31,147 nt of DNA from Haloferacaceae archaeon (GCA_042217455.1 JBDGSQ010000137.1:1-31147), one strand, 5' to 3'. Numbered from the stretch's first letter, positions 13,823 through 25,243 are shown. Program-made: numbers and translations. Notes: a model not told the origin generated them from the sequence alone.

Positions 13823-16486
13823 TCACTTCTCGCTCAAGTCCTCCTGCCAGTCCAGCACGCGCTGTGCCAATTCGAGCGGCGACATCTCGTTGACGTTGAC
13901 CGATTCCAGTTCTTCGAGAACCTCCTCGGTCTCGGGGTCGAGCCCGTCGTCTGCGGAGTCGGTTGCCGCTGACCCTCCGTCTGTGCCCGCTTTGAACTGT
14001 CCGGACGAGAGGTCGAACGTGACTTGCTGTGTCGTCCCGTCGTCGGTAGTCGCTCCTCGAACGTCGATGGCCTTCTCCTCGCGGAGCCTGCGAAGCACGT
14101 CGCGCGCGCGGTCGACGACCGGGTCGGGAACGCCCGCGAGTTCGGCGACGTGAATCCCGTAGGACCGGTCGGCGGGGCCGTCGCGAATCGTCCGGAGGAA
14201 GGTGACGTCGCCGTCTCGCTCGTCTGCGCCCATGTGGACGTTCGCGACCCCGTCGAGTCTGTCGGCGAGGGTCGTCAGCTCGTGGTAGTGGGTCGCGAAG
14301 AGGACCTTCGGCCCGTTCGGACCTCGCCCCGTCGCGTCTGGCCCCACAACGTCGCCGTGGTGGAGGTACTCGGTGGCGGCCCACGCGATGGAGATGCCGT
14401 CGTACGTCGCCGTCCCCCGGCCCACCTCGTCCAGGACGACCAGCGACTCCTCGGTGGCCGAGTGGAGGATGTTCGACAGCTCCTGCATCTCCACCATGAA
14501 CGTCGAGCGTCCCTGCGCGAGTTCGTCGAGCGCGCCGACCCGGGTGTAGATGCCGTCGACGACGCCCACCTCGGCGCGCCGGCCGGGGACGAAGCTCCCG
14601 ATCTGCGCCAGGAGGACGACGAGCGCGGTCTGTCGCATGTACGTCGACTTCCCGCTCATGTTCGGGCCGGTGACGACGAGAAAGCCCCGCTCGTCGTCCA
14701 TCCGGAGGTCGTTCGGGACGAAGTCGGTCGTCTGCTCGACGACGGGGTGTCGGCCCGCCTCGATGTCGAGGACGCCGGGTTCTCGCAGTTCGGGCCGCGT
14801 CCAGTCGTTGCCGGCGGCGTGGGTCGCGAGCGAGGCGAGGGCGTCCACCTCGGCGACGGTGCGTCCCACGTCCTGCAGGAGTTCGACGCGGTCGCCGACC
14901 CGCGTTCTGAGTTCACAGAACAGGTCGTACTCCAGCTCGCCTCGCGCTTCCTCGAGTCTGAGCACCTCGCGCTCCCGCTCCTCCAGTTCGTCTGTGACGA
15001 AGCGCTTCGAGTTCTTCAGCGTCTTTAGCTCGCGGTAGTGTTCGGGCACCCGGTCTGCGACCGACTTCCCGACCTGCACGTAGTAGCCGTCCGTCTTGTT
15101 CCGGTCGACGGTGACGTGCGAGAGGCCGTGCTGGCGCTTCTCGCGCTCTGCGAGCGTGTCGAGCCACCGGGTCACCTCGTCGTGGCGCTCCATCAGCCCG
15201 TCGAGTTCGTCGTCGTAACCGCGACAGAACAGGCCGCCCTGCGTGACGGTCTTCGGGGGGTCCTCGGCGAGCGCCTCGTCGAGTTCCTCGTGCAGTTCCC
15301 GCGCCGCGTCCCGGTCCGGTCGCGTGACGACGTCCGCGAGCGGCGAGTCGGCGAGGTCGGTCCCCTCGATGGCCTCGCCGAGGGCCGGCAGGAGCGCGAG
15401 CGTGTCCCGGACTGCGAGCAGGTCGTTCGCGTCGGCGCTCCCACTGGCGGCGCGGCTCGCCAGCCGTTCGAGGTCGTACGCCCCGTCGAGGACGTCCCTG
15501 ACGCGCTCTCGCGCCAGAGCGGCGGACGCGAGCGCCTCCACCGCGTCGAGGCGGCGCTCCAGTTCCTCCCGGGAGCGCCGCGGTCTGATGAGCCACTCGC
15601 GGAGGAGCCGGCCGCCGGCGCTCGTGACCGTGTGGTCGATGGTGTCGTACAGCGACCCCGAGCGCCCGCCCTGCATCGTCTCGGTCAGTTCGAGGTTGCG
15701 CTGGGTGGTGGCGTCGAGTTCGAGGTGGTCCGCCGTCTCGTAGACCTGCAGCCGGGTCACCGACGCCAGCACGCCCGCGCCCGTCTCCTCGACGTACGAG
15801 AGAACCGCTCCCGCGGCCCGCACCGCGAGGTCCGAGTCGAGGCCGACGCTCGCTGTCGTCTCTTCGCCGAACTGCGAGCGGACGGCGTGTTTCGCCCGCC
15901 CGGGCGCGAAGCTCTCTGCGTCGTGGAGCGTGAGCGTCGCGTCGGTCTCCCCGCGGATCGTCGAGAGGAAGCCGTCGTCGTTTCTGAGGTCGGGGCCCGG
16001 CAGCACCTCGACCGGGGCGAAGCGGTAGAGTTCGGCGCGCACGTCCGGCGTCGTCGTCACGAGGAACCGGCCGGTGGTCACGTCGGCGAACGCGAGCCCG
16101 TACTCGTCGTCCGCGCCGGCGACCACGGCGGCGAGGTACTGGGCGTCGTCGTCGCTGACAGAGAGGAGCGTTCCAGGCGTGACCACGCGGGTCACCTCCC
16201 GGTAGATGTCGCCCGCGTCGGTCTCCGACTGGTCTGCGACGGCGACGCGGTAGCCGCGCTCGACGAGCGCTTTCAGGTACGGCTCGAGGTCGTCGACCGG
16301 AACGCCGGCCATCGGATACGAGGAGCCGTGAGAGGACTTCTGAGACACCTTCAGGTCGAGTTCGTCGCTGACGAGTTCCGCGTCGTCGCCGAAGAACTCG
16401 TAGAAGTCGCCACACTGCATCGCGAGCACGTCGGTGTCGGTCTCTGATTTCAGCGAGAGGAACTCGCCGACGATTCCTTCGGGCAT
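13823..16486 (-). CDS. mutS: DNA mismatch repair protein MutS (MutS1 type)
   Basis: Mismatch-binding GDFYEFF, MAGVP, RVVTPGT, LDATTQRNLEL, GRHPVVE, Walker A TGPNMSGKSTYMRQ, STFMVEM, LDEVGRGT, FATHYHEL and SYGIHVAELAGVP. Confidence 0.97.
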   Translation of the reverse strand: MPEGIVGEFLSLKSETDTDVLAMQCGDFYEFFGDDAELVSDELDLKVSQKSSHGSSYPMAGVPVDDLEPYLKALVERGYRVAVADQSETDAGDIYREVTRVVTPGTLLSVSDDDAQYLAAVVAGADDEYGLAFADVTTGRFLVTTTPDVRAELYRFAPVEVLPGPDLRNDDGFLSTIRGETDATLTLHDAESFAPGRAKHAVRSQFGEETTASVGLDSDLAVRAAGAVLSYVEETGAGVLASVTRLQVYETADHLELDATTQRNLELTETMQGGRSGSLYDTIDHTVTSAGGRLLREWLIRPRRSREELERRLDAVEALASAALARERVRDVLDGAYDLERLASRAASGSADANDLLAVRDTLALLPALGEAIEGTDLADSPLADVVTRPDRDAARELHEELDEALAEDPPKTVTQGGLFCRGYDDELDGLMERHDEVTRWLDTLAEREKRQHGLSHVTVDRNKTDGYYVQVGKSVADRVPEHYRELKTLKNSKRFVTDELEEREREVLRLEEARGELEYDLFCELRTRVGDRVELLQDVGRTVAEVDALASLATHAAGNDWTRPELREPGVLDIEAGRHPVVEQTTDFVPNDLRMDDERGFLVVTGPNMSGKSTYMRQTALVVLLAQIGSFVPGRRAEVGVVDGIYTRVGALDELAQGRSTFMVEMQELSNILHSATEESLVVLDEVGRGTATYDGISIAWAATEYLHHGDVVGPDATGRGPNGPKVLFATHYHELTTLADRLDGVANVHMGADERDGDVTFLRTIRDGPADRSYGIHVAELAGVPDPVVDRARDVLRRLREEKAIDVRGATTDDGTTQQVTFDLSSGQFKAGTDGGSAATDSADDGLDPETEEVLEELESVNVNEMSPLELAQRVLDWQEDLSEK

Positions 16487-20382: not shown

Positions 20383-21102
20383 ATGGCGCTCTACGAAGCG
20401 ACCTTCCGCGTCCGCCACGAGTGTCCCTACCGAGAAATCTCCGAACGGCACCCGGACCTCACCATCCGCGAGTGGTTCATGCGCGACTGTCAGGTCCTCG
20501 AACTCGTCGCCGACGCCCCGACCGAGACGCTCCGGGAGGACCTCCGGACGCTCGGCACGGTCCTCCACGAGTCCGCCACCGACGACGGTCTCCACGCAGT
20601 GATGCGGTCCTGTCGCTGCTCGCTCGACGACTCGATAGTGGCCCGATTCGAGACCCACGACTGCCTCTACCAGCCCCCGACCGTCTACCGGCGCGGGTGG
20701 GAACACTACACCGTCGTCGCGTTCGAGGAGGCGGACGTGCGCGCGCTCCTGCGCGATCTGGACGACGAGCGCGACGTCGAGGTGACCGCGAAGACGACCA
20801 TCGAGGAACGGCCGGTCGGCGAGAACCTCCTGACGCCCGCAGAGCGACTGTTCGACGGGCTGACCGACCGACAGGTTGCGGCGCTCCGGCTCGCCCTCGA
20901 CAACGGGTACTACGAGCAGCCGCGCGGGGCCTCGGTGGCGACGCTCGCAGAGCGGACCGACGTGGCGCGCTCGACGTTCGAGGAACATCTCCGGAAGGCG
21001 GAGAACAAACTCCTCACGAACGCCGGGCAGTTCGTCCGTCCGCTGACGGCCTCGCGCGGGACCGACCCGCTGGTTGAGCGGTCGCCTCCGGCGGACGACT
21101 GA
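20383..21102 (+). CDS. Bacterio-opsin-activator-type transcriptional regulator (HTH-10 C-terminal domain)
   Basis: C-terminal LTDRQVAALRLALDNGYYEQPRGASVATLAERTDVARSTFEEHLRKAENKL is the haloarchaeal HTH_10 signature. The Cys/His-containing N-terminal domain is a probable sensor. Confidence 0.9.
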   Translation: MALYEATFRVRHECPYREISERHPDLTIREWFMRDCQVLELVADAPTETLREDLRTLGTVLHESATDDGLHAVMRSCRCSLDDSIVARFETHDCLYQPPTVYRRGWEHYTVVAFEEADVRALLRDLDDERDVEVTAKTTIEERPVGENLLTPAERLFDGLTDRQVAALRLALDNGYYEQPRGASVATLAERTDVARSTFEEHLRKAENKLLTNAGQFVRPLTASRGTDPLVERSPPADD

Positions 21103-21196: not shown

Positions 21197-21901
21197 CTAC
21201 TCGTCGAGGTTGGCGGGTTCGAGTTCGTCGCCCGTCCGCACGACGGGGAGCGTCGGCGTCCCGTCGCGGAGCTGCGGGCGGATCCAGTCGTGGGTCCGGA
21301 CTGTCCCCTCCGTGACCGGGTCGCCCTCCTCGTCGACGACGCGGATGCCGTCCCCGCGGAGGCGACTGACGCCGACCGTCTCCCCGTACTCCCGGATGTC
21401 GCCGTAGGCGACGAAGCGGCCGTCCTCGCCGGCGGCGGTCAGTCCCACCGACCCCAGCGCGCCGATGACGCCGTCGCCGGTGCCGCCGTACTCGTCGAGA
21501 AACAGGCCCGCCTCCTCGGCCACCTCGTAGGCGTCCTCCTTCGTCACGACCTCCTCCTGGGCCCGGCGGCCGAAGGCCGTGACCTCCTCGGTGACGGCCG
21601 CGACGGCCGCGACGCAGAGGCCGGGGTCCGCGACGTCCGCCATCACGTCCCGGAGGAACGCGCCGGCGTCTTCGACGATAGCGTCGACCGGCGGCACCTC
21701 GGCGTCGAAGCGGAGACACGCCGCGCTGTTGTGTGTCGTGTAGGGGACCCGCGGGTCGACGAGGAACTGCTGGCGGACGCTCCCGACCCACGTGAGGTCG
21801 TAGTCGCGTTCCAGTCTGGCACCGAGCTCTCTGCTCACCCGGCCGGTTCCGTGGTCGCTGTCGACGGCGTCCGTGTCGTCGATTCCGACGAGAAGTCTCA
21901 T
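21197..21901 (-). CDS. TiaS-like protein: isolated N-terminal kinase domain (GIDDTD) without the agmatine/tRNA-binding domains; function unknown
   Basis: 234 aa from ATG 21901. Motifs MRLLVGIDDTD, DPRVPYTTHNSAA, DPGLC and GTGDGVIGALGSVG align by eye with the TiaS motifs GIDDTD, NPxIPYKTRGNGA, NPG and GRGLIGALAAVG. Too short to hold the OB-fold and Zn ribbon, and has no CxxC pairs. Confidence 0.8.
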   Translation of the reverse strand: MRLLVGIDDTDAVDSDHGTGRVSRELGARLERDYDLTWVGSVRQQFLVDPRVPYTTHNSAACLRFDAEVPPVDAIVEDAGAFLRDVMADVADPGLCVAAVAAVTEEVTAFGRRAQEEVVTKEDAYEVAEEAGLFLDEYGGTGDGVIGALGSVGLTAAGEDGRFVAYGDIREYGETVGVSRLRGDGIRVVDEEGDPVTEGTVRTHDWIRPQLRDGTPTLPVVRTGDELEPANLDE

Positions 21902-21923
21902 CGCTCCACGTCCCTGTCGAATC

Positions 21924-21931
21924 ACTTTAGT
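21924..21931. promoter_or_regulatory. Candidate shared bidirectional TATA element (ACTTTAGT / ACTAAAGT)
   Basis: Main AT-rich, near-palindromic stretch in the 54-bp gap. It lies about 23 bp from ATG 21901 (-) and about 25 bp from ATG 21956 (+). Confidence 0.5.
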
Positions 21932-21955
21932 CGTTGTGGGTCGCTCGTTGTATCC

Positions 21956-23266
21956 ATGACGAGACAACGCTCGCGGCGGCGGTTCCTCGGCGGAATCGGC
22001 CTGCTCGCACTCGGGAGCGTGACGGGGCTCGCAGGCTGTACGTCCCAGTCGGCGTCCCCGGGCGACGGTGGCGACACGACCGACGCGGAGACGACGACCC
22101 GTACCGCCACCGACGCGACGACCACCACGGCGTCGGGGGCGGGTGCGTCTGCCGGTCGGTCCGTGACGGACGCCGCGGGGAGGACGGTGACGGTGCCCGC
22201 GGACGTCGAGCGCGTCGTCGCGCTCGGGTCCGGAGGCCTCCGGTTCGTCACCTACGCCGGCGGCGTCGACCGGGTCGTCGGCGTCGAACAGCTGGAGACC
22301 TCGAACGCCGACCGACCGTACCGACCCTACACGCTCGCCAACCAGGGGCTGACGGGGCTCCCGACGGTCGGCACGCGGAAGGAACCGGACCGGGAGCGCG
22401 TCCTCCAGACCGACCCGGACGTCGTCGTCTACGCCTACGCGAGCGAGTCGGCGGCGAACGAGATGCAGGACAAGCTCGGCGTCCCGGTGGTCACCATCCG
22501 ACCGGGCGGGCTGACGCCGGAGCTCCGCAGCTCGTTCTTCGACTCGCTCGACCTCCTCGGCACCGTCCTCGGGACGACAGACCGGGTCGAGCGCCTCCGC
22601 GCCGACGTCGAGGACGTCCTCGCCGACCTCGCCGACCGGCGCGGACGTGTCGAGACGAAATCCGATGCGTACGTCGGTTACCTCGGCCGCGGGAAGCACG
22701 GCCTCACGTTCACACAGCCGAGTTACGTGCCGTTCGCCCTCGGCGGCGTGGCGAACGTCGCCGCCGGGGCGAGTGGCAGTGGTGGCGGTGGCGGTAGCGG
22801 CGGAGGCGATGGAAGCGGTGGCGGTAGCGGCGGAGGCGATGGAAGCGGTGGCGGTAGCGGCGGAGGCGATGGAAGCGGTGGCGGCGGTGGAGGTGGTGGC
22901 GACGGCGGCCGCAAGGGCGCGACCAGAATCACTATCGACCCCGAGACGCTCCTCAAGTGGGACCCGGAGGTGCTCTTCGTGGACCTCGGGACCGAGTCCT
23001 ACGACGCCCTCGACGCGCCGGAGTACCAGGACGTCACGGCCATCGCGAACGGCGACGTCTACGCGGTCCTGCCGACGCGCGACTACGGGACGAACTTCGG
23101 GACGGTCCTCGCAGACGCCTACGCCGTCGGCGCGGCGGCGAACCCCGACGTCTACGACGTCGACCCGGTCGCGAAGGCGAACGAACTCTACGAGACGTTC
23201 GTCGGCGAGGGCGTCTACGAGGGCGTCGCCGACGCCTACGGGGACGGATTCGGTCGGATGGAGTGA
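21956..23266 (+). CDS. ABC transporter substrate-binding lipoprotein, BtuF/FecB/HemV-like (metal-chelate/cofactor), Tat-exported
   Basis: Tat SRRRFL with lipobox LAGC and a Thr-rich linker. Motifs VTDAAGRTVTVPADVERVVALG, RVVGVE, LPTVG, ERVLQTDPDVV and IDPETLLKWDPEVLFVD. Confidence 0.92.
   Translation: MTRQRSRRRFLGGIGLLALGSVTGLAGCTSQSASPGDGGDTTDAETTTRTATDATTTTASGAGASAGRSVTDAAGRTVTVPADVERVVALGSGGLRFVTYAGGVDRVVGVEQLETSNADRPYRPYTLANQGLTGLPTVGTRKEPDRERVLQTDPDVVVYAYASESAANEMQDKLGVPVVTIRPGGLTPELRSSFFDSLDLLGTVLGTTDRVERLRADVEDVLADLADRRGRVETKSDAYVGYLGRGKHGLTFTQPSYVPFALGGVANVAAGASGSGGGGGSGGGDGSGGGSGGGDGSGGGSGGGDGSGGGGGGGGDGGRKGATRITIDPETLLKWDPEVLFVDLGTESYDALDAPEYQDVTAIANGDVYAVLPTRDYGTNFGTVLADAYAVGAAANPDVYDVDPVAKANELYETFVGEGVYEGVADAYGDGFGRME
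22787..22876 (+). repeat. 30-bp in-frame tandem repeat x3 encoding (GGGSGGGDGS)3 inside the binding protein
   Basis: GGTGGCGGTAGCGGCGGAGGCGATGGAAGC is exact at 22787, 22817 and 22847, flanked by further Gly codons. Confidence 0.95.
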
Positions 23267-24411
23267 CCGTGTTCGACGGCGACGCGTCGGAGCGAAACGC
23301 GGGCGCGAACTCCACCGCGAAGATGTCGTACGCGGTCGAGTCGGACGCGACCGGAGACGAGGCGGCGGACCCGGTGGCGGCCTACGAGCGCCGCGTCCGC
23401 GGTAAACTCGCCGTCTTCGGCGGGCTCGTCGTCCTCCTGCTGGCGCTCGTCGGGTACGCCCTGCTCTCCGGGCCGATAACCGTCCCCGTGCGGGTGCTCC
23501 CGTCGGTCCTCCTCGGGCAGCGGGGCGGCACCGCCGCGCGGGTGGTCTGGAACATCAGGCTCCCGCGAATCGTCGCGGCGCTCGGCGCGGGGTTCGGTCT
23601 CGCCGTCGCCGGCGCCGTCCTCCAGAGCCTCCTGCGGAACCCGCTGGCCTCCCCCTACACGCTCGGTATCTCGCAGGCGGCCGCCTTCGGCGCGGCCGTC
23701 GCCATCGTCGTTCTCGGTGCGGGGTCCTCCGCGACCGCCTCGGCGCTGGACTGGGTGCCGTATCTGACGACGGCGTTCGCCTTCGGGGCTGCGCTGCTCT
23801 CGACGTTCGCGATTCTGCTCGTCGCCAGGCTCCGGCGGGCGACCCCCGAGACGCTGGTCCTGACCGGCATCGCGCTGGGGGCGTTCTTCACCGCCGGCAC
23901 CTCGGCGCTCGAGTACTTCGCCACGAACGTGCAGCTGGCGGCGCTCATCGCGTGGAAGTTCGGGAGCATCTCCGGAGCGACGTGGGGCGGAAACGCGGCG
24001 CTCTGGGCCACCGGCGTGGTCGCCGGCGGCTACTTCCTCCGGAACGCGTGGTCCTACGAGGTGCTCGACGCCGGCGACGACACCGCCCGGTCGCTCGGCG
24101 TGCGCGTCACCCGGGTGCGACTCGGCGGCATGATCGTCGCCTCGCTGGTGACGGCGGTCGTCGTCTCGCTGTTCGGCGTCATCGGCTTCGTCGGCCTCGT
24201 GGTCCCGCACATCGTCCGGCGGGTCATCGGCGGCGACGAGCGGTTCCTCGTCGCCACGTCGAGCGTCGCCGGCGGCGCACTCCTGCTCGCCTCGGACCTC
24301 GTCGCCCGGTCGGTGCTCGCGCCGGTCGTCCTCCCGGTCGGCATCGTCACCGCTTTCGTCGGTGTGCCGCTGTTTCTCTACCTCCTCGTCAACGGGAGGG
24401 AGTACTGGTGA
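23263..24411 (+). CDS. ABC transporter permease, FecCD/BtuC family
   Basis: Motifs VWNIRLPRIVAALGAG, LQSLLRNPLASPYTLGISQAAAFGA, ARSLGV, GVIGFVGLVVPHIVRR and PVGIVTAFVGVPLFLYLL. GTG 23263 overlaps the binding-protein stop (GTGA); ATG 23323 is an alternative start. Confidence 0.93.
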   Translation: MTVFDGDASERNAGANSTAKMSYAVESDATGDEAADPVAAYERRVRGKLAVFGGLVVLLLALVGYALLSGPITVPVRVLPSVLLGQRGGTAARVVWNIRLPRIVAALGAGFGLAVAGAVLQSLLRNPLASPYTLGISQAAAFGAAVAIVVLGAGSSATASALDWVPYLTTAFAFGAALLSTFAILLVARLRRATPETLVLTGIALGAFFTAGTSALEYFATNVQLAALIAWKFGSISGATWGGNAALWATGVVAGGYFLRNAWSYEVLDAGDDTARSLGVRVTRVRLGGMIVASLVTAVVVSLFGVIGFVGLVVPHIVRRVIGGDERFLVATSSVAGGALLLASDLVARSVLAPVVLPVGIVTAFVGVPLFLYLLVNGREYW

Positions 24412-24450
24412 CCGTCGTCTCCGGGAGCGTCCCGGCGATAGTCGCCGGGG

Positions 24451-24507
24451 GGAGGGGTCCGCCGGTGATTCGCCTCGACAGGAGGGAGTGCCGGTGATTC
24501 GCCTCGA
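24451..24507 (+). repeat. 29-bp-period direct repeat duplicating the ribosome-binding site and start of the ABC ATPase
   Basis: GCCGGTGATTCGCCTCGA occurs at 24461-24478 and 24490-24507, each preceded by GGAGGG. Confidence 0.85.
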
Positions 24508-25243
24508 TTCGGTCACCGCCGGCTACGACGACCCGGTCGTCTCCGACGTCTCGCTCGGCGTCGACCGGGGCGAGTGCGTCGCGCTGCTGGGTCCGAACGG
24601 GGTCGGCAAGTCGACGCTCCTCCGGACGGTCCTCGGACTGCAGTCGCCGCTGGCCGGAACCGTCGCCGTCGGCGGCGACGACGTGACGACGCTCTCGCGG
24701 CAGGCCGTCGCGAACCGCCTCGGCTACGTCCCGCAGTCCGAACCGTCCGGCCTCCCCTCGACGGTGTTCGAGACGGTGCTGACCGGTCGGAAGCCCCACA
24801 CCTCGTGGCGACCGACCGCGAGCGACCGGGAGATCGTCGGCGACGTCCTCGGGCGACTCGGCGTCGCGGACCTGGCGATGCGGCCGCTGTCTGCGCTCTC
24901 CGGCGGCCAGCGCCAGCAGGTCCGACTCGCGCGCGCGCTCGCACAGGACCCCTCCGGCCTCGTCCTCGACGAACCGACGAGCAGCCTCGACCTCCGCCAC
25001 CAGCTCGACGTCCTCGGGCACGTCCGGTCGCTGTGCGCAGACGGGATGGCCGTCCTCTTCGCGCTCCACGACCTCGAACTGGCGACCCGATTCGCTGACG
25101 AACTCGTCTTCCTCGCCGACGGGGGCGTCGTCGCCTCCGGCGGTCCGGACGTCGTCACGTCCGACCTCGTCGCAGCGGTGTACGGCATCGACGCCCGCGT
25201 CGTCGACGTCGACGGCCACCGGGTCGTCCTGCCCGAACCCTAG
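24494..25243 (+). CDS. ABC transporter ATP-binding protein, FecE/BtuD family
   Basis: Walker A GPNGVGKSTLL, Q-loop GYVPQ, signature LSGGQRQQ, Walker B LVLDEPTSSLD and H-loop LHDL. GTG start preceded by GGAGGGAG. Confidence 0.93.
   Translation: MIRLDSVTAGYDDPVVSDVSLGVDRGECVALLGPNGVGKSTLLRTVLGLQSPLAGTVAVGGDDVTTLSRQAVANRLGYVPQSEPSGLPSTVFETVLTGRKPHTSWRPTASDREIVGDVLGRLGVADLAMRPLSALSGGQRQQVRLARALAQDPSGLVLDEPTSSLDLRHQLDVLGHVRSLCADGMAVLFALHDLELATRFADELVFLADGGVVASGGPDVVTSDLVAAVYGIDARVVDVDGHRVVLPEP

What the first reader, a model, noticed from the sequence alone, without database searches (positions are those of the whole stretch)
21197..25243. Stand-alone TiaS kinase-domain paralogue sharing a bidirectional promoter with a cofactor/metal-chelate ABC importer: candidate uncharacterised uptake-and-activation system
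Seen in sequence: the 234-aa gene keeps the N-terminal TiaS motifs. These are GIDDTD, a Thr in 'HGTG' that aligns by eye with the 'CTT' Thr, PxVPYTTHN where TiaS has PxIPYKTRGN, DPG, and GxGVIGALG. It then ends in about 80 residues unlike the rest of TiaS. It has no Zn-ribbon CxxC pairs and is too short for the ferredoxin-like and OB domains. Its ATG is only 54 bp from the ATG of a BtuF/FecB-BtuC-BtuD-type operon, with one central TATA-like element about 23-25 bp from both starts. Established: TiaS (tRNA-Ile2 agmatinylcytidine synthetase) uses this N-terminal domain to hydrolyse ATP to AMP + PPi and phosphorylate C34, and is itself phosphorylated on a Thr. Its downstream domains bind agmatine and the tRNA anticodon arm. 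Inference: this paralogue cannot recognise tRNA the way TiaS does. It may instead phosphorylate or activate a small molecule, possibly the cofactor, metal chelate or modified nucleoside imported by the co-regulated ABC system. The TRGN-to-TTHN change suggests an altered active site.
Basis: partly seen in the sequence, partly recalled or inferred. Interest (0 to 1): 0.8.

Follow-up and report, generated by a model that had tools for sequence, protein, structure and literature searches.

The report
TiaS-kinase-like partner of Mo/W-regulated importer
A haloarchaeon carries, besides its normal tRNA enzyme TiaS, a stand-alone copy of TiaS's ATP-using kinase domain that is always paired head-to-head with a B12/siderophore-type ABC importer. 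The importer's start codon lies in a DNA palindrome that otherwise marks tungstate/molybdate uptake genes, so the pair is probably an undescribed way of acquiring these metals.

Summary
A 234-aa gene (21197-21901, minus strand) keeps the TiaS kinase (TCKD) fold (VIA-align Z 21 to PDB 3AMT). It lacks the FLD, OB and zinc-ribbon parts. It lies 54 bp from the start of a binding-protein/FecCD/ATPase importer operon. A complete TiaS is encoded elsewhere in the genome, so this is a true paralogue.

The protein belongs to an uncharacterised family. In 73 of 80 bacterial and archaeal loci it sits beside importers (TupABC, ECF, TonB, FecCD types), tungsten/molybdenum (W/Mo) regulators or enzymes, or molybdenum-storage-like genes. 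One locus has a Moco riboswitch directly upstream.

In haloarchaea the family is rare (4 of 300 genomes). All 10 loci examined have the same divergent importer.

New here: the importer's ATG sits in the centre of a 24-bp palindrome (21946-21969). In 27 of 30 sampled sites from other haloarchaeal genomes this palindrome marks the start codons of TupA-like or WtpA-like genes. It has the half-sites and spacing of the palindrome upstream of E. coli modA.

Most likely this is a Mo/W-repressed uptake module with an ATP-dependent cytoplasmic partner. The transported species and the enzyme's chemistry are untested.

The scan has already noted bacterial members many times (42 notes). I found no paper on the family.

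The parts
21197..21901 (-). Gene for the 234-aa stand-alone TiaS-TCKD-like protein (P0001), stop codon included
   Evidence: Translation. Homologues start at the same Met. Pfam, NCBIfam and structure matches.
21428..21901 (-). TCKD-like (TiaS kinase fold) domain, residues about 1-158. Family-invariant residues are D8 D9 T10 D11, G18 T19 G20, R24, R43, T55 N58 S59, P93 G94 and G144-A148. H57 and C96 are nearly invariant.
   Evidence: VIA-align Z 21.1 to 3amt_A residues 1-160. Foldseek E 5e-10. Invariant columns from a 28-sequence alignment.
21200..21427 (-). Family-specific beta-rich C-terminal domain, residues about 159-234, with invariant G161 R162, R170 and R208 P209. Its fold is unassigned.
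   Evidence: Conserved in the whole family. Modelled alone at pLDDT 80. No Foldseek match at E<=0.001 and no VIA-align match at Z>=2. It is therefore not detectably TiaS FLD, OB or TOBE.
21902..21955 (.). 54-bp divergent intergenic region
   Evidence: Sequence. The same head-to-head layout is seen in 10 of 10 haloarchaeal loci.
21924..21931 (.). Near-palindromic TATA-like element ACTTTAGT, 27 and 28 nt from the two ATGs. An extra CGTTGT copy follows at 21932-21937.
   Evidence: Read from the sequence. The function is inferred (leaderless archaeal promoters). Transcription starts were not mapped.
21946..21969 (.). 24-bp palindrome CGTTGTATCC-ATG-ACGAGACAACG centred on the importer start codon. 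Candidate Mo/W-box operator of a ModE-like repressor.
   Evidence: Conserved at the importer start in 10 haloarchaeal loci. In 5 genomes, 8 of 9 sites with <=3 mismatches are module importer starts or TupA/WtpA-like gene starts, with 0 hits to the reversed control. It occurs in 107 of 301 Halobacteria genomes. Of 30 sampled sites, 27 lie on TupA-like or WtpA-like start codons. The half-sites and spacing match the palindrome upstream of E. coli modA.
21956..23266 (+). Substrate-binding protein: Tat signal (RRRF), lipobox Cys28, Thr-rich linker, Peripla_BP_2 fold
   Evidence: Pfam 75.6 bits. The best solved relative is 2etv (T. maritima TM0189) at E 6e-51. Orthologues are aligned.
22785..22884 (+). 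Perfect 30-bp x 3.3 in-frame tandem repeat. It encodes part of a Gly/Ser/Asp insertion of about 45 residues in the binding protein.
   Evidence: TRF reports 100% matches. The insertion is present only in the subclade of the window, L084, L088 and L089.
23323..24411 (+). FecCD/BtuC-type permease (type II ABC importer)
   Evidence: Pfam FecCD 276 bits. NCBIfam BtuC/FhuB/FecCD models all score below their equivalog cut-offs.
24488..25243 (+). ABC ATPase of the importer (GTG start assumed)
   Evidence: Pfam ABC_tran 109 bits. Start chosen from the codon table and the alignment to L084.

Best explanation
The four genes form a Mo/W-regulated metal-acquisition module.

The Tat-exported lipoprotein binding protein, FecCD permease and ATPase make a type II ABC importer. 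It brings in tungsten or molybdenum, either as the oxyanion (as MolBC-A of Haemophilus does) or bound to a carrier molecule.

The divergently encoded 234-aa protein is the module's cytoplasmic partner. It is an enzyme built on the TiaS kinase fold and keeps the acidic DDTD metal/ATP motif and a helix-capping Thr. It has lost every tRNA-binding domain and gained a small Arg-rich beta domain. I propose that it spends ATP on the imported species: it traps, activates or releases the metal so that it can be handed to storage or to pyranopterin-cofactor synthesis.

Expression is probably shut off when Mo/W is sufficient, by a ModE-like repressor binding the 24-bp palindrome that straddles the importer's start codon.

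Shown: the fold; the separate TiaS; the conserved pairing with importers; the W/Mo context of the family; the shared palindrome.

Inferred: Mo/W as substrate; ModE-like control; ATP use.

Speculative: the chemical step.
For: (1) TCKD fold with catalytic motifs kept. Pfam and NCBIfam hits. Foldseek E 5e-10 and VIA-align Z 21.1 to TiaS structures. Invariant DDTD, GTG, T..NS, PG and GVIGA columns.

(2) Not TiaS. The genome's own 431-aa TiaS, with all four domains, is on another contig. Identity to it is 29%.

(3) Family context, from clustering neighbours in 80 loci.
- 70 of 80 have an importer or W/Mo gene within 4 kb. Three more have FecCD-type importers.
- Neighbours include TupA/TupB/WtpC-like and ModA genes and HTH_17+PBP_like regulators of the TaoR type (PMC11980592).
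- A homologue of molybdenum storage protein beta (E 4e-66 to 2ogx_B) is present in 35 loci.
- AOR and FDH subunits also occur.
- In Geobacteraceae locus L072 a Moco/Wco riboswitch (60 bits) ends 126 nt upstream of the gene's start. Three more lie in the same tungsten island.

(4) In Desulfobacterium locus L070 the gene ends a FecCD-ATPase-binding-protein operon. That binding protein matches MolA (HI_1472, 3psa) at E 1.6e-23.

(5) Haloarchaea. Only 4 of 300 near-complete genomes carry the family. All 10 loci keep the divergent importer while other neighbours vary.

(6) Palindrome.
- It is centred on the importer ATG in these loci.
- In the five carrier genomes the only other good copies sit on the ATGs of WtpA-like or TupA-like genes. 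Two of those are divergent from a ModE-N+TOBE regulator gene.
- Class-wide it occurs in 107 of 301 genomes, usually once per genome, and the reversed-pattern control hit only 3 genomes once each.
- 27 of 30 sampled sites start TupA-like or WtpA-like genes.
- In the window's own genome the WtpA site reads CGATGT..ACATCG. Both half-sites are changed together, and the coding half changes Gln to His. This argues for selection on the DNA symmetry.
- The 24-mer upstream of E. coli modA has the same CGTTRT-N12-AYAACG layout. Its role as the ModE operator is textbook knowledge, not tested here.

(7) All five carrier genomes have 2-6 AOR-family genes.
Against: - No W/Mo gene lies next to the module in any haloarchaeal locus. 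The link rests on the palindrome and on relatives that are 40-46% identical.
- The haloarchaeal proteins form their own group in the tree, so function could have diverged.
- The window's binding protein does not match MolA at E<=0.01. Its nearest solved relative is labelled a putative iron(III)-binding protein.
- The carrier genomes already have TupA-like and/or WtpA-like binding proteins, so a third oxyanion importer is not obviously needed.
- The palindrome lies 44-68 bp upstream of the TCKD-like ATG, beyond its presumed TATA box. Control of that gene by the same site is uncertain.
- ATP binding and turnover are untested (one search was not folded).
- The Lys and Arg of the TiaS KTRGN motif are replaced.
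Confidence: 0.55

Rival explanations
1. One reading: the importer takes up an organic cofactor, iron chelate, corrinoid or nucleoside-like molecule, and the TCKD-like enzyme phosphorylates that organic molecule as a salvage kinase. Mo/W is not the cargo.
For: - Peripla_BP_2/FecCD importers usually carry chelates, haem or corrinoids.
- The nearest solved binding protein is annotated as iron(III)-binding.
- Weak NCBIfam hits to corrinoid, F420-0 and haem ATPases are all below cut-off.
- The carrier genomes already own Tup/Wtp-type oxyanion importers.
- ECF and TonB partners in bacteria are typical of vitamin uptake.
Against: - The importer start carries the palindrome that otherwise marks TupA/WtpA-like genes.
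- The family context is W/Mo transport, storage, regulation and a riboswitch.
- The FecCD-linked bacterial member has a MolA-like binding protein.
- A variant in which the cargo is a W/Mo-loaded carrier or a pterin is not excluded. It overlaps with the best explanation.
Confidence: 0.15
2. The TCKD-like protein is a sensor or switch rather than a metabolic enzyme. It binds a nucleotide and/or the metal or cofactor. It autophosphorylates on the conserved Thr as TiaS does, and it signals cytoplasmic W/Mo status to the importer or to a regulator.
For: - TiaS autophosphorylates Thr18 (established knowledge).
- The GTG Thr is invariant in the family.
- ESM Atlas lists archaeal clusters in which a TCKD domain is fused to TrmB/IclR-type HTH domains. 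This shows the fold can be used in regulators.
- The gene sits at promoters and operon ends next to regulators.
Against: - There is no DNA-binding or receiver domain here.
- The partner importers belong to three unrelated ATPase/permease classes, which makes a direct gating contact unlikely.
- The full acidic catalytic motif and many invariant Arg residues fit a substrate-turnover site.
- The tight coupling with a MoSto homologue and a 74-aa protein in one clade suggests a handling step.
Confidence: 0.2
3. It is still an RNA-modifying enzyme: a split or alternative TiaS-like kinase acting on a tRNA or another RNA. The neighbouring importer is coincidental.
For: Homology to TiaS TCKD. Several sources annotate homologues as TiaS. 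The protein has many conserved Arg residues.
Against: - It lacks the FLD, OB and Zn-ribbon domains that hold agmatine and tRNA.
- A full TiaS exists in the genome.
- The family is widespread in Bacteria, which use TilS (established knowledge).
- The importer linkage is conserved in 10 of 10 haloarchaeal loci and in most bacterial loci.
Confidence: 0.05

Closest known systems
TiaS, archaeal tRNA(Ile2) 2-agmatinylcytidine synthetase (A. fulgidus, PDB 3AMT/3AMU/5XOB; P. furiosus 3U02)
   Same: It shares the N-terminal Thr18-Cyt34 kinase domain fold (Z 21.1, rmsd 2.1 A over 152 residues). It also shares the motifs G-I-DDTD, P-Y-x-T-x-N, (D/N)PG and GxG-IGAL.
   Different: It has no FLD, OB or zinc-ribbon domain, and has a novel 75-residue C-terminal domain instead. 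KTRGN is replaced by TTHN, and there is a new near-invariant Cys96. It scores 43.7 bits against the equivalog cut-off of 600. The genome has its own TiaS. The genomic context is metal uptake, not translation.
MolBC-A (HI1470/HI1471/HI1472) of Haemophilus influenzae, the type II ABC importer for molybdate/tungstate (PMC4031551)
   Same: It has the same architecture: a Peripla_BP_2 binding protein, a FecCD-type permease and an ATPase. A bacterial member of the TCKD-like family sits in an operon whose binding protein matches MolA at E 1.6e-23. The window's importer carries the haloarchaeal Mo/W-type palindrome.
   Different: The window's binding protein is not detectably MolA-like. No TCKD-like partner is described for MolBC-A. 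The cargo here is unknown.
ModE-molybdate repression of modABC in E. coli
   Same: It is a 24-bp palindrome with CGTTRT/AYAACG half-sites 12 bp apart, close to the start of the binding-protein gene. ModE-N+TOBE regulators are present in all five carrier genomes, and two are divergent from a palindrome-bearing WtpA-like gene.
   Different: In haloarchaea the palindrome is centred exactly on the start codon and constrains the first five codons of unrelated binding proteins. Binding by the archaeal ModE-like protein is untested.
TupABC / MoSto-like / 74-aa protein operons of anaerobic bacteria that contain the same TCKD-like family
   Same: The protein family is the same: 40-46% identity over the full length and all invariant residues shared. 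Each is encoded next to a high-affinity importer.
   Different: The haloarchaeal group is a separate branch. It pairs with a FecCD-type importer in divergent orientation. It has no MoSto homologue, no 74-aa partner and no riboswitch nearby.

Membership tests
TiaS (tRNA(Ile2) agmatidine synthetase) | N-terminal TCKD kinase domain | tested here: met
   Pfam PF22641 scores 27.5 bits against a cut-off of 27. Foldseek E 5e-10. VIA-align Z 21.1.
TiaS (tRNA(Ile2) agmatidine synthetase) | FLD, OB-fold and C-terminal zinc ribbon that bind agmatine and tRNA | tested here: not met
   No Pfam hit beyond TCKD. The protein is 234 aa with 2 Cys and no CxxC. The C-terminal domain matches nothing. The genome's real TiaS shows all four domains.
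TiaS (tRNA(Ile2) agmatidine synthetase) | Score above the NCBIfam equivalog cut-off (600 bits) | tested here: not met
   43.7 bits, covering only positions 1-176 of 422.
TiaS (tRNA(Ile2) agmatidine synthetase) | KTRGN motif after the conserved P-Y | tested here: not met
   It is replaced by T-T-H-N-S, which is nearly invariant in the family.
Uncharacterised TCKD-like family linked to W/Mo uptake (ESM Atlas cluster of 3253 'hypothetical proteins') | Full-length similarity, including the C-terminal domain and the invariant residues | tested here: met
   321 homologues were found, and 549 representatives at E<=1e-10. Atlas structural TM is 0.96.
Uncharacterised TCKD-like family linked to W/Mo uptake (ESM Atlas cluster of 3253 'hypothetical proteins') | Encoded next to a high-affinity importer | tested here: met
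   The window has a FecCD-type importer 54 bp away. All 10 haloarchaeal loci do the same. Among the other 80 loci, 57 have a TupABC, ECF or TonB importer component within 4 kb and 3 have a FecCD-type importer.
Uncharacterised TCKD-like family linked to W/Mo uptake (ESM Atlas cluster of 3253 'hypothetical proteins') | Mo/W-responsive control (riboswitch, ModE/TaoR-type regulator or operator) | tested here: inconclusive
   There is no riboswitch in the window. A palindrome shared with TupA/WtpA-like genes lies at the importer start. Its binding protein and its effect on the TCKD-like gene are untested.
MolBC-A-type (type II) molybdate/tungstate ABC importer | FecCD-type permease, ABC ATPase and Peripla_BP_2 binding protein | tested here: met
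   Pfam hits.
MolBC-A-type (type II) molybdate/tungstate ABC importer | Binding protein homologous to MolA (HI_1472) | tested here: not met
   phmmer of the window's binding protein against the PDB lists no MolA at E<=0.01. The binding protein of bacterial locus L070 does match, at E 1.6e-23.
MolBC-A-type (type II) molybdate/tungstate ABC importer | Binds and transports molybdate/tungstate | not testable with these tools
   This needs ITC or ICP-MS on the purified binding protein, and uptake assays.
BtuCDF / siderophore / haem importers | Score above an NCBIfam equivalog cut-off for a named substrate | tested here: not met
   All BtuC, FhuB, FecCD, haem and corrinoid models score far below their cut-offs.
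ModE regulon | Palindromic operator CGTTRT-N12-AYAACG at the promoter or start of the transport gene | tested here: met
   Window 21946-21969. The E. coli modA upstream sequence was read.
ModE regulon | Binding of a molybdate/tungstate-loaded ModE-type protein | not testable with these tools
   ModE-N+TOBE genes exist in all five carrier genomes. An EMSA or footprint is needed.

The most novel reading that the evidence does not exclude
The TCKD-like protein catalyses a so far unknown ATP-dependent step in tungsten/molybdenum acquisition. Examples would be phosphoryl or adenylyl activation of the oxyanion, or release of the metal from an imported carrier. The same step would be shared by Bacteria and Archaea and coupled to four unrelated importer classes. 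Separately, haloarchaea control their W/Mo uptake genes, this module included, through a ModE-type operator that is written across the start codon and dictates the first codons of unrelated binding proteins.
Probability: 0.4. Interest if true: 0.85.

Novelty: new variant of a known kind. Interest (0 to 1): 0.7.

Why it matters
How cells tell tungsten from molybdenum, and how they pass the imported oxyanion to storage and to pyranopterin-cofactor synthesis, is an open question in metalloenzyme biology.

A conserved, uncharacterised ATP-type enzyme sits beside W/Mo importers in hundreds of anaerobes. Here it also sits in aerobic haloarchaea that own several AOR-family enzymes. That makes it a concrete candidate for a missing step.

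The haloarchaeal version is a compact four-gene module found in cultured genera (Halobellus, Salinirubellus, Haloarchaeobius, Halolamina, Halanaeroarchaeum), so genetics and biochemistry look feasible.

The start-codon palindrome gives a simple marker for predicting the Mo/W regulon in Halobacteria. It is also a clear case of an operator constraining signal-peptide codons.

Tried and rejected
- C-terminal domain. I asked whether it is a TOBE/Mop, OB or TiaS-FLD fold. Modelled alone (pLDDT 80), it gave no Foldseek hit at E<=0.001 and no VIA-align hit at Z>=2. The fold is unassigned.
- ATP/Mg docking with complex prediction. The job was not folded by the tool, so it gives no evidence either way.
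- Longer family members (276-428 aa) as informative fusions. Pfam found no extra domain.
- The four-cysteine miniprotein partner mentioned in earlier scan notes. A scan for small ORFs near the gene in 80 loci found only the 74-aa charged protein of the MoSto clade. The 94-bp gap downstream of the gene in the window leaves no room for one.
- The idea that carrier genomes lack canonical W/Mo importers, so that the FecCD system would be the only one. Rejected: TupA-like and/or WtpA-like genes are present.
- MolA-likeness of the window's binding protein. Not found.
- Riboswitch or other Rfam element in the window. None found.
- W/Mo genes elsewhere in the 31-kb window. None among the 10 further ORFs scanned; those found are MutS, MutL, a Na/H exchanger, CNNM, PfkB and similar.
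- Literature. No paper in the searchable library links TiaS-like/TCKD proteins, COG1571 or methanogenesis marker 11 with tungsten or molybdenum.
- RNA-hairpin reading of the palindrome. Judged less likely, because the TATA-like box 28 nt upstream predicts a leaderless mRNA that would lack the upstream arm. This is an inference, not a test.

Full report
**1. Observation**

The window is about 70% G+C. The protein sequences and their closest homologues are haloarchaeal.

The minus-strand ORF 21197-21901 encodes 234 residues.

On the plus strand, a binding-protein gene starts at 21956, exactly 54 bp away. A FecCD permease (23323-24411) and an ABC ATPase (24488-25243) follow it.

A near-palindromic TATA-like element, ACTTTAGT (21924-21931), lies 27 and 28 nt from the two start codons.

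**2. The protein is a real TiaS-kinase-domain relative, but it is not TiaS**

- Pfam TiaS_TCKD just passes its cut-off (27.5 bits against 27).
- NCBIfam TiaS matches only positions 1-176 of 422, at 43.7 bits against a cut-off of 600. The C-terminal half of 'methanogenesis marker protein 11' also matches.
- An AlphaFold model built from 28 homologues has pLDDT 93.4.
- Foldseek ranks the TiaS structures first (E 5e-10). An exhaustive VIA-align pass gives Z 21.1 to 3amt_A residues 1-160, with the next unrelated chain at Z 7.8.
- The last 75 or so residues form a beta-rich domain that is conserved in the family. Modelled alone, it matches no solved fold.
- The genome (a 54%-complete assembly) encodes a 431-aa TiaS with TCKD, FLD, OB and zinc-ribbon domains on another contig. 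It is 29% identical to the paralogue.

**3. The family**

- A word-seeded search finds 321 homologues.
- An exhaustive search of 1.8 billion cluster representatives finds 549 at E<=1e-10.
- Members are mostly 230-260 aa, unnamed or mislabelled as TiaS.
- They come from haloarchaea, Methanoculleus, Thermodesulfobacteriota, Chloroflexota, Bacteroidota, Planctomycetota, Actinomycetota and Sporomusa.
- Invariant residues are D8 D9 T10 D11, G18 T19 G20, R24, R43, T55 N58 S59, P93 G94, G144/I146-A148, G161 R162, R170 and P209. H57, C96, V145 and R208 are nearly invariant.
- I found no paper on the family.

**4. Neighbourhoods outside haloarchaea**

I clustered all ORFs within 5 kb of the gene in 80 loci from species-representative genomes. 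I named the recurrent clusters with Pfam, NCBIfam and PDB searches.

| Neighbour | Loci (of 80) |
|---|---|
| Homologue of molybdenum storage protein beta (E 4e-66) | 35 |
| Conserved 74-85-aa charged protein | 32 |
| 191-aa polytopic membrane protein | 29 |
| TupA-like binding protein | 24 |
| TupB-like permease | 24 |
| EcfT/CbiQ, with paired ECF ATPases | 19 |
| HTH_17+PBP_like regulator of the TaoR type (PMC11980592) | 18 |
| TonB-dependent receptor | 17 |

WtpC-like TOBE-bearing ATPases fall within a general ABC-ATPase cluster found in 47 loci. ModE-N-like HTH proteins, ModA, AOR and FDH subunits also occur.

Seventy of the 80 loci have at least one of these within 4 kb. Three more (L004, L005, L070) have FecCD-type importers.

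In L070 (Desulfobacterium) the gene is the last of a FecCD-ATPase-binding-protein operon. That binding protein matches MolA of the Haemophilus MolBC-A molybdate/tungstate importer (E 1.6e-23).

In L072 (Geobacteraceae) a Moco/Wco riboswitch lies directly upstream of the gene. Three more switches precede AOR-ThiF, an IclR regulator and a porin-TupABC unit.

A maximum-likelihood tree separates three groups that follow context:
- a Tup+MoSto clade;
- an ECF/TonB clade, which also holds L070 and L072;
- the haloarchaeal sequences.

The TiaS outgroup branch is very long, so the root is uncertain.

**5. Haloarchaea**

- Among 300 near-complete Halobacteria genomes, only four carry the family.
- In those four, in five further haloarchaeal contigs and in the window, the gene is head-to-head with an orthologous Peripla_BP_2/FecCD/ATPase importer. 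That is 10 of 10 loci. All other neighbours differ.
- In Halanaeroarchaeum the importer gene order is permease-ATPase-binding protein, yet the divergent pairing is kept.
- The rest of the window holds unrelated housekeeping genes and no Rfam element.

**6. The palindrome**

Aligning the regions upstream of the importer genes showed a conserved element centred on the start codon. In the window it reads CGTTGTATCC-ATG-ACGAGACAACG (21946-21969): 6-bp arms separated by 12 bp.

*In the five carrier genomes.* A search for the extended pattern with up to three mismatches gave nine sites, and none for the reversed control.
- Five are the module's importer starts.
- Two are the start codons of WtpA-like genes. 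Each of these is divergent from a ModE-N+TOBE regulator gene.
- One is the start codon of a TupA-like gene.
- One is a stray.

*In the window's own genome.* The pattern occurs only twice in 2 Mb. The WtpA-like copy reads CGATGT..ACATCG, so both arms are changed together. The coding arm thereby encodes Glu-His-Arg instead of Arg-Gln-Arg. This points to selection on DNA symmetry rather than on the peptide.

*Across the class.* The motif (<=2 mismatches) occurs in 107 of 301 genomes, usually once per genome. Only three genomes had one hit each to the reversed-pattern control. Of 30 sampled sites, 27 are the start codon of a TupA-like (15) or WtpA-like (12) binding-protein gene.

*Comparison with E. 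coli.* The sequence upstream of E. coli modA contains CGTTATATTGTCGCCTACATAACG, which has the same CGTTRT-N12-AYAACG layout. That this is the ModE operator is established knowledge that I recall; I did not test it here.

I therefore read the element as the haloarchaeal Mo/W box, bound by the ModE-like regulator that all five carrier genomes encode. On that reading the FecCD-type importer belongs to the Mo/W regulon.

The TATA-like box 28 nt upstream predicts a leaderless mRNA. That favours a DNA operator over an RNA hairpin (inference).

**7. Mechanism**

Shown:
- a TCKD-fold protein with its acidic motif intact, without tRNA-binding parts;
- obligate pairing with importers of four classes;
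- the W/Mo context of the family;
- a shared palindrome with tungstate/molybdate binding-protein genes.

Inferred:
- the importer carries W/Mo, either as oxyanion (as in MolBC-A, PMC4031551) or as a complex;
- the module is repressed when Mo/W is sufficient;
- the TCKD-like protein uses ATP on the imported species, to trap, activate or hand it over.

Counter-points:
- the window's binding protein is not MolA-like, and its nearest solved relative is a putative iron-binding protein;
- the carrier genomes already have Tup/Wtp systems;
- no W/Mo gene flanks the module;
- the palindrome lies upstream of the paralogue's own presumed TATA box;
- no biochemical test was possible.

Rivals (see their fields): salvage of an organic cofactor or chelate; a sensor/switch role, supported by TCKD-HTH fusions in methanogens; a residual RNA-modifying role.

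**8. Relation to earlier scan notes**

After forming my reading I consulted the scan's notes. Forty-two notes in at least 32 other genomes describe bacterial members. They reach the same family-level conclusion: W/Mo uptake or storage, a riboswitch, a MoSto homologue, MolBC-A-like importers.

I re-derived the neighbourhood statistics, the MoSto homology and one riboswitch case independently. I could not find the 'four-cysteine partner' in my loci. None of the notes returned by these searches concerns haloarchaea or the start-codon palindrome.

**9. Verdict**

The finding is real. The functional reading is sharpened from 'cofactor/chelate uptake and activation' to 'Mo/W-regulated uptake module with an uncharacterised TCKD-like enzyme'.

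It is a new variant of known kinds: a type II ABC importer, a ModE-type regulon and the TiaS kinase fold. Its core component has no described function.

Noticed in passing
window 21946-21969; G000:C79:898-921; 107 of 301 Halobacteria genomes: A 24-bp palindrome (consensus CGTTGTATCn-ATG-nnnnAACAACG) is centred on the start codons of TupA-like and WtpA-like binding-protein genes across Halobacteria. It fixes their first codons (M-x-[KIE]-Q-R). It looks like a ModE-type Mo/W box and could be used to predict the regulon.
   Followed up: yes
window 22785-22884 (within the binding-protein gene): A perfect 30-bp x 3.3 tandem repeat encodes part of a Gly/Ser/Asp insertion of about 45 residues in the binding protein. 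The insertion exists only in the closest orthologues (L084, L088, L089) and is absent from the others, so it is a recent expansion of a flexible loop.
   Followed up: partly
L072:3474-13309 (Geobacteraceae MAG): Four Moco/Wco riboswitches lie within 6 kb. They precede AOR-ThiF/MoeB, an IclR regulator, the TCKD-like gene and an anion porin-TupABC unit. This is a dense tungsten island.
   Followed up: partly
L006, L008, L011, L016, L028, L030, L038, L040 and other loci (clusters 5, 10 and 11): A 191-aa polytopic membrane protein with no Pfam or NCBIfam match recurs next to the TCKD-like gene. It comes with EcfT/CbiQ plus two ATPases and/or a TonB-dependent receptor, often alongside TaoR/ModE-like regulators. 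This may be an undescribed ECF/TonB route for W/Mo.
   Followed up: partly
L007:8739-8987, L019:4768-4992 and about 30 other loci: A conserved 74-85-aa highly charged protein without any family match always sits between the TCKD-like gene and a single-subunit molybdenum-storage-protein homologue in the Tup+MoSto clade. It is absent from the haloarchaeal module.
   Followed up: partly
NCBIfam TIGR03280 hit on P0001; ESM Atlas rows 5, 6 and 8: The C-terminal half of 'methanogenesis marker protein 11' resembles this TCKD-like domain. Methanobacteriota also have TCKD domains fused to TrmB/IclR-type HTH domains. Both are further uncharacterised uses of the TiaS kinase fold in archaea.
   Followed up: no
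window 20383-21102 (+): An HVO_A0563_N + HTH_10 transcription regulator gene converges on the 3' end of the TCKD-like gene, 94 bp away. It is not conserved next to the module in other haloarchaea, so it is probably unrelated.
   Followed up: partly
window 21932-21937: An extra CGTTGT half-site copy abuts the TATA-like element in the window, L084 and L088. WtpA-like promoters have CGTTAT or AGTTAT at a similar place. It may be a second contact for the same regulator.
   Followed up: no
L064:11533-11621 and 15515-15604 (Actinomycetota MAG): Two c-di-GMP-II-GAG riboswitch matches (60-65 bits) lie a few kb downstream of the TCKD-like gene. They are unrelated to the finding.
   Followed up: no
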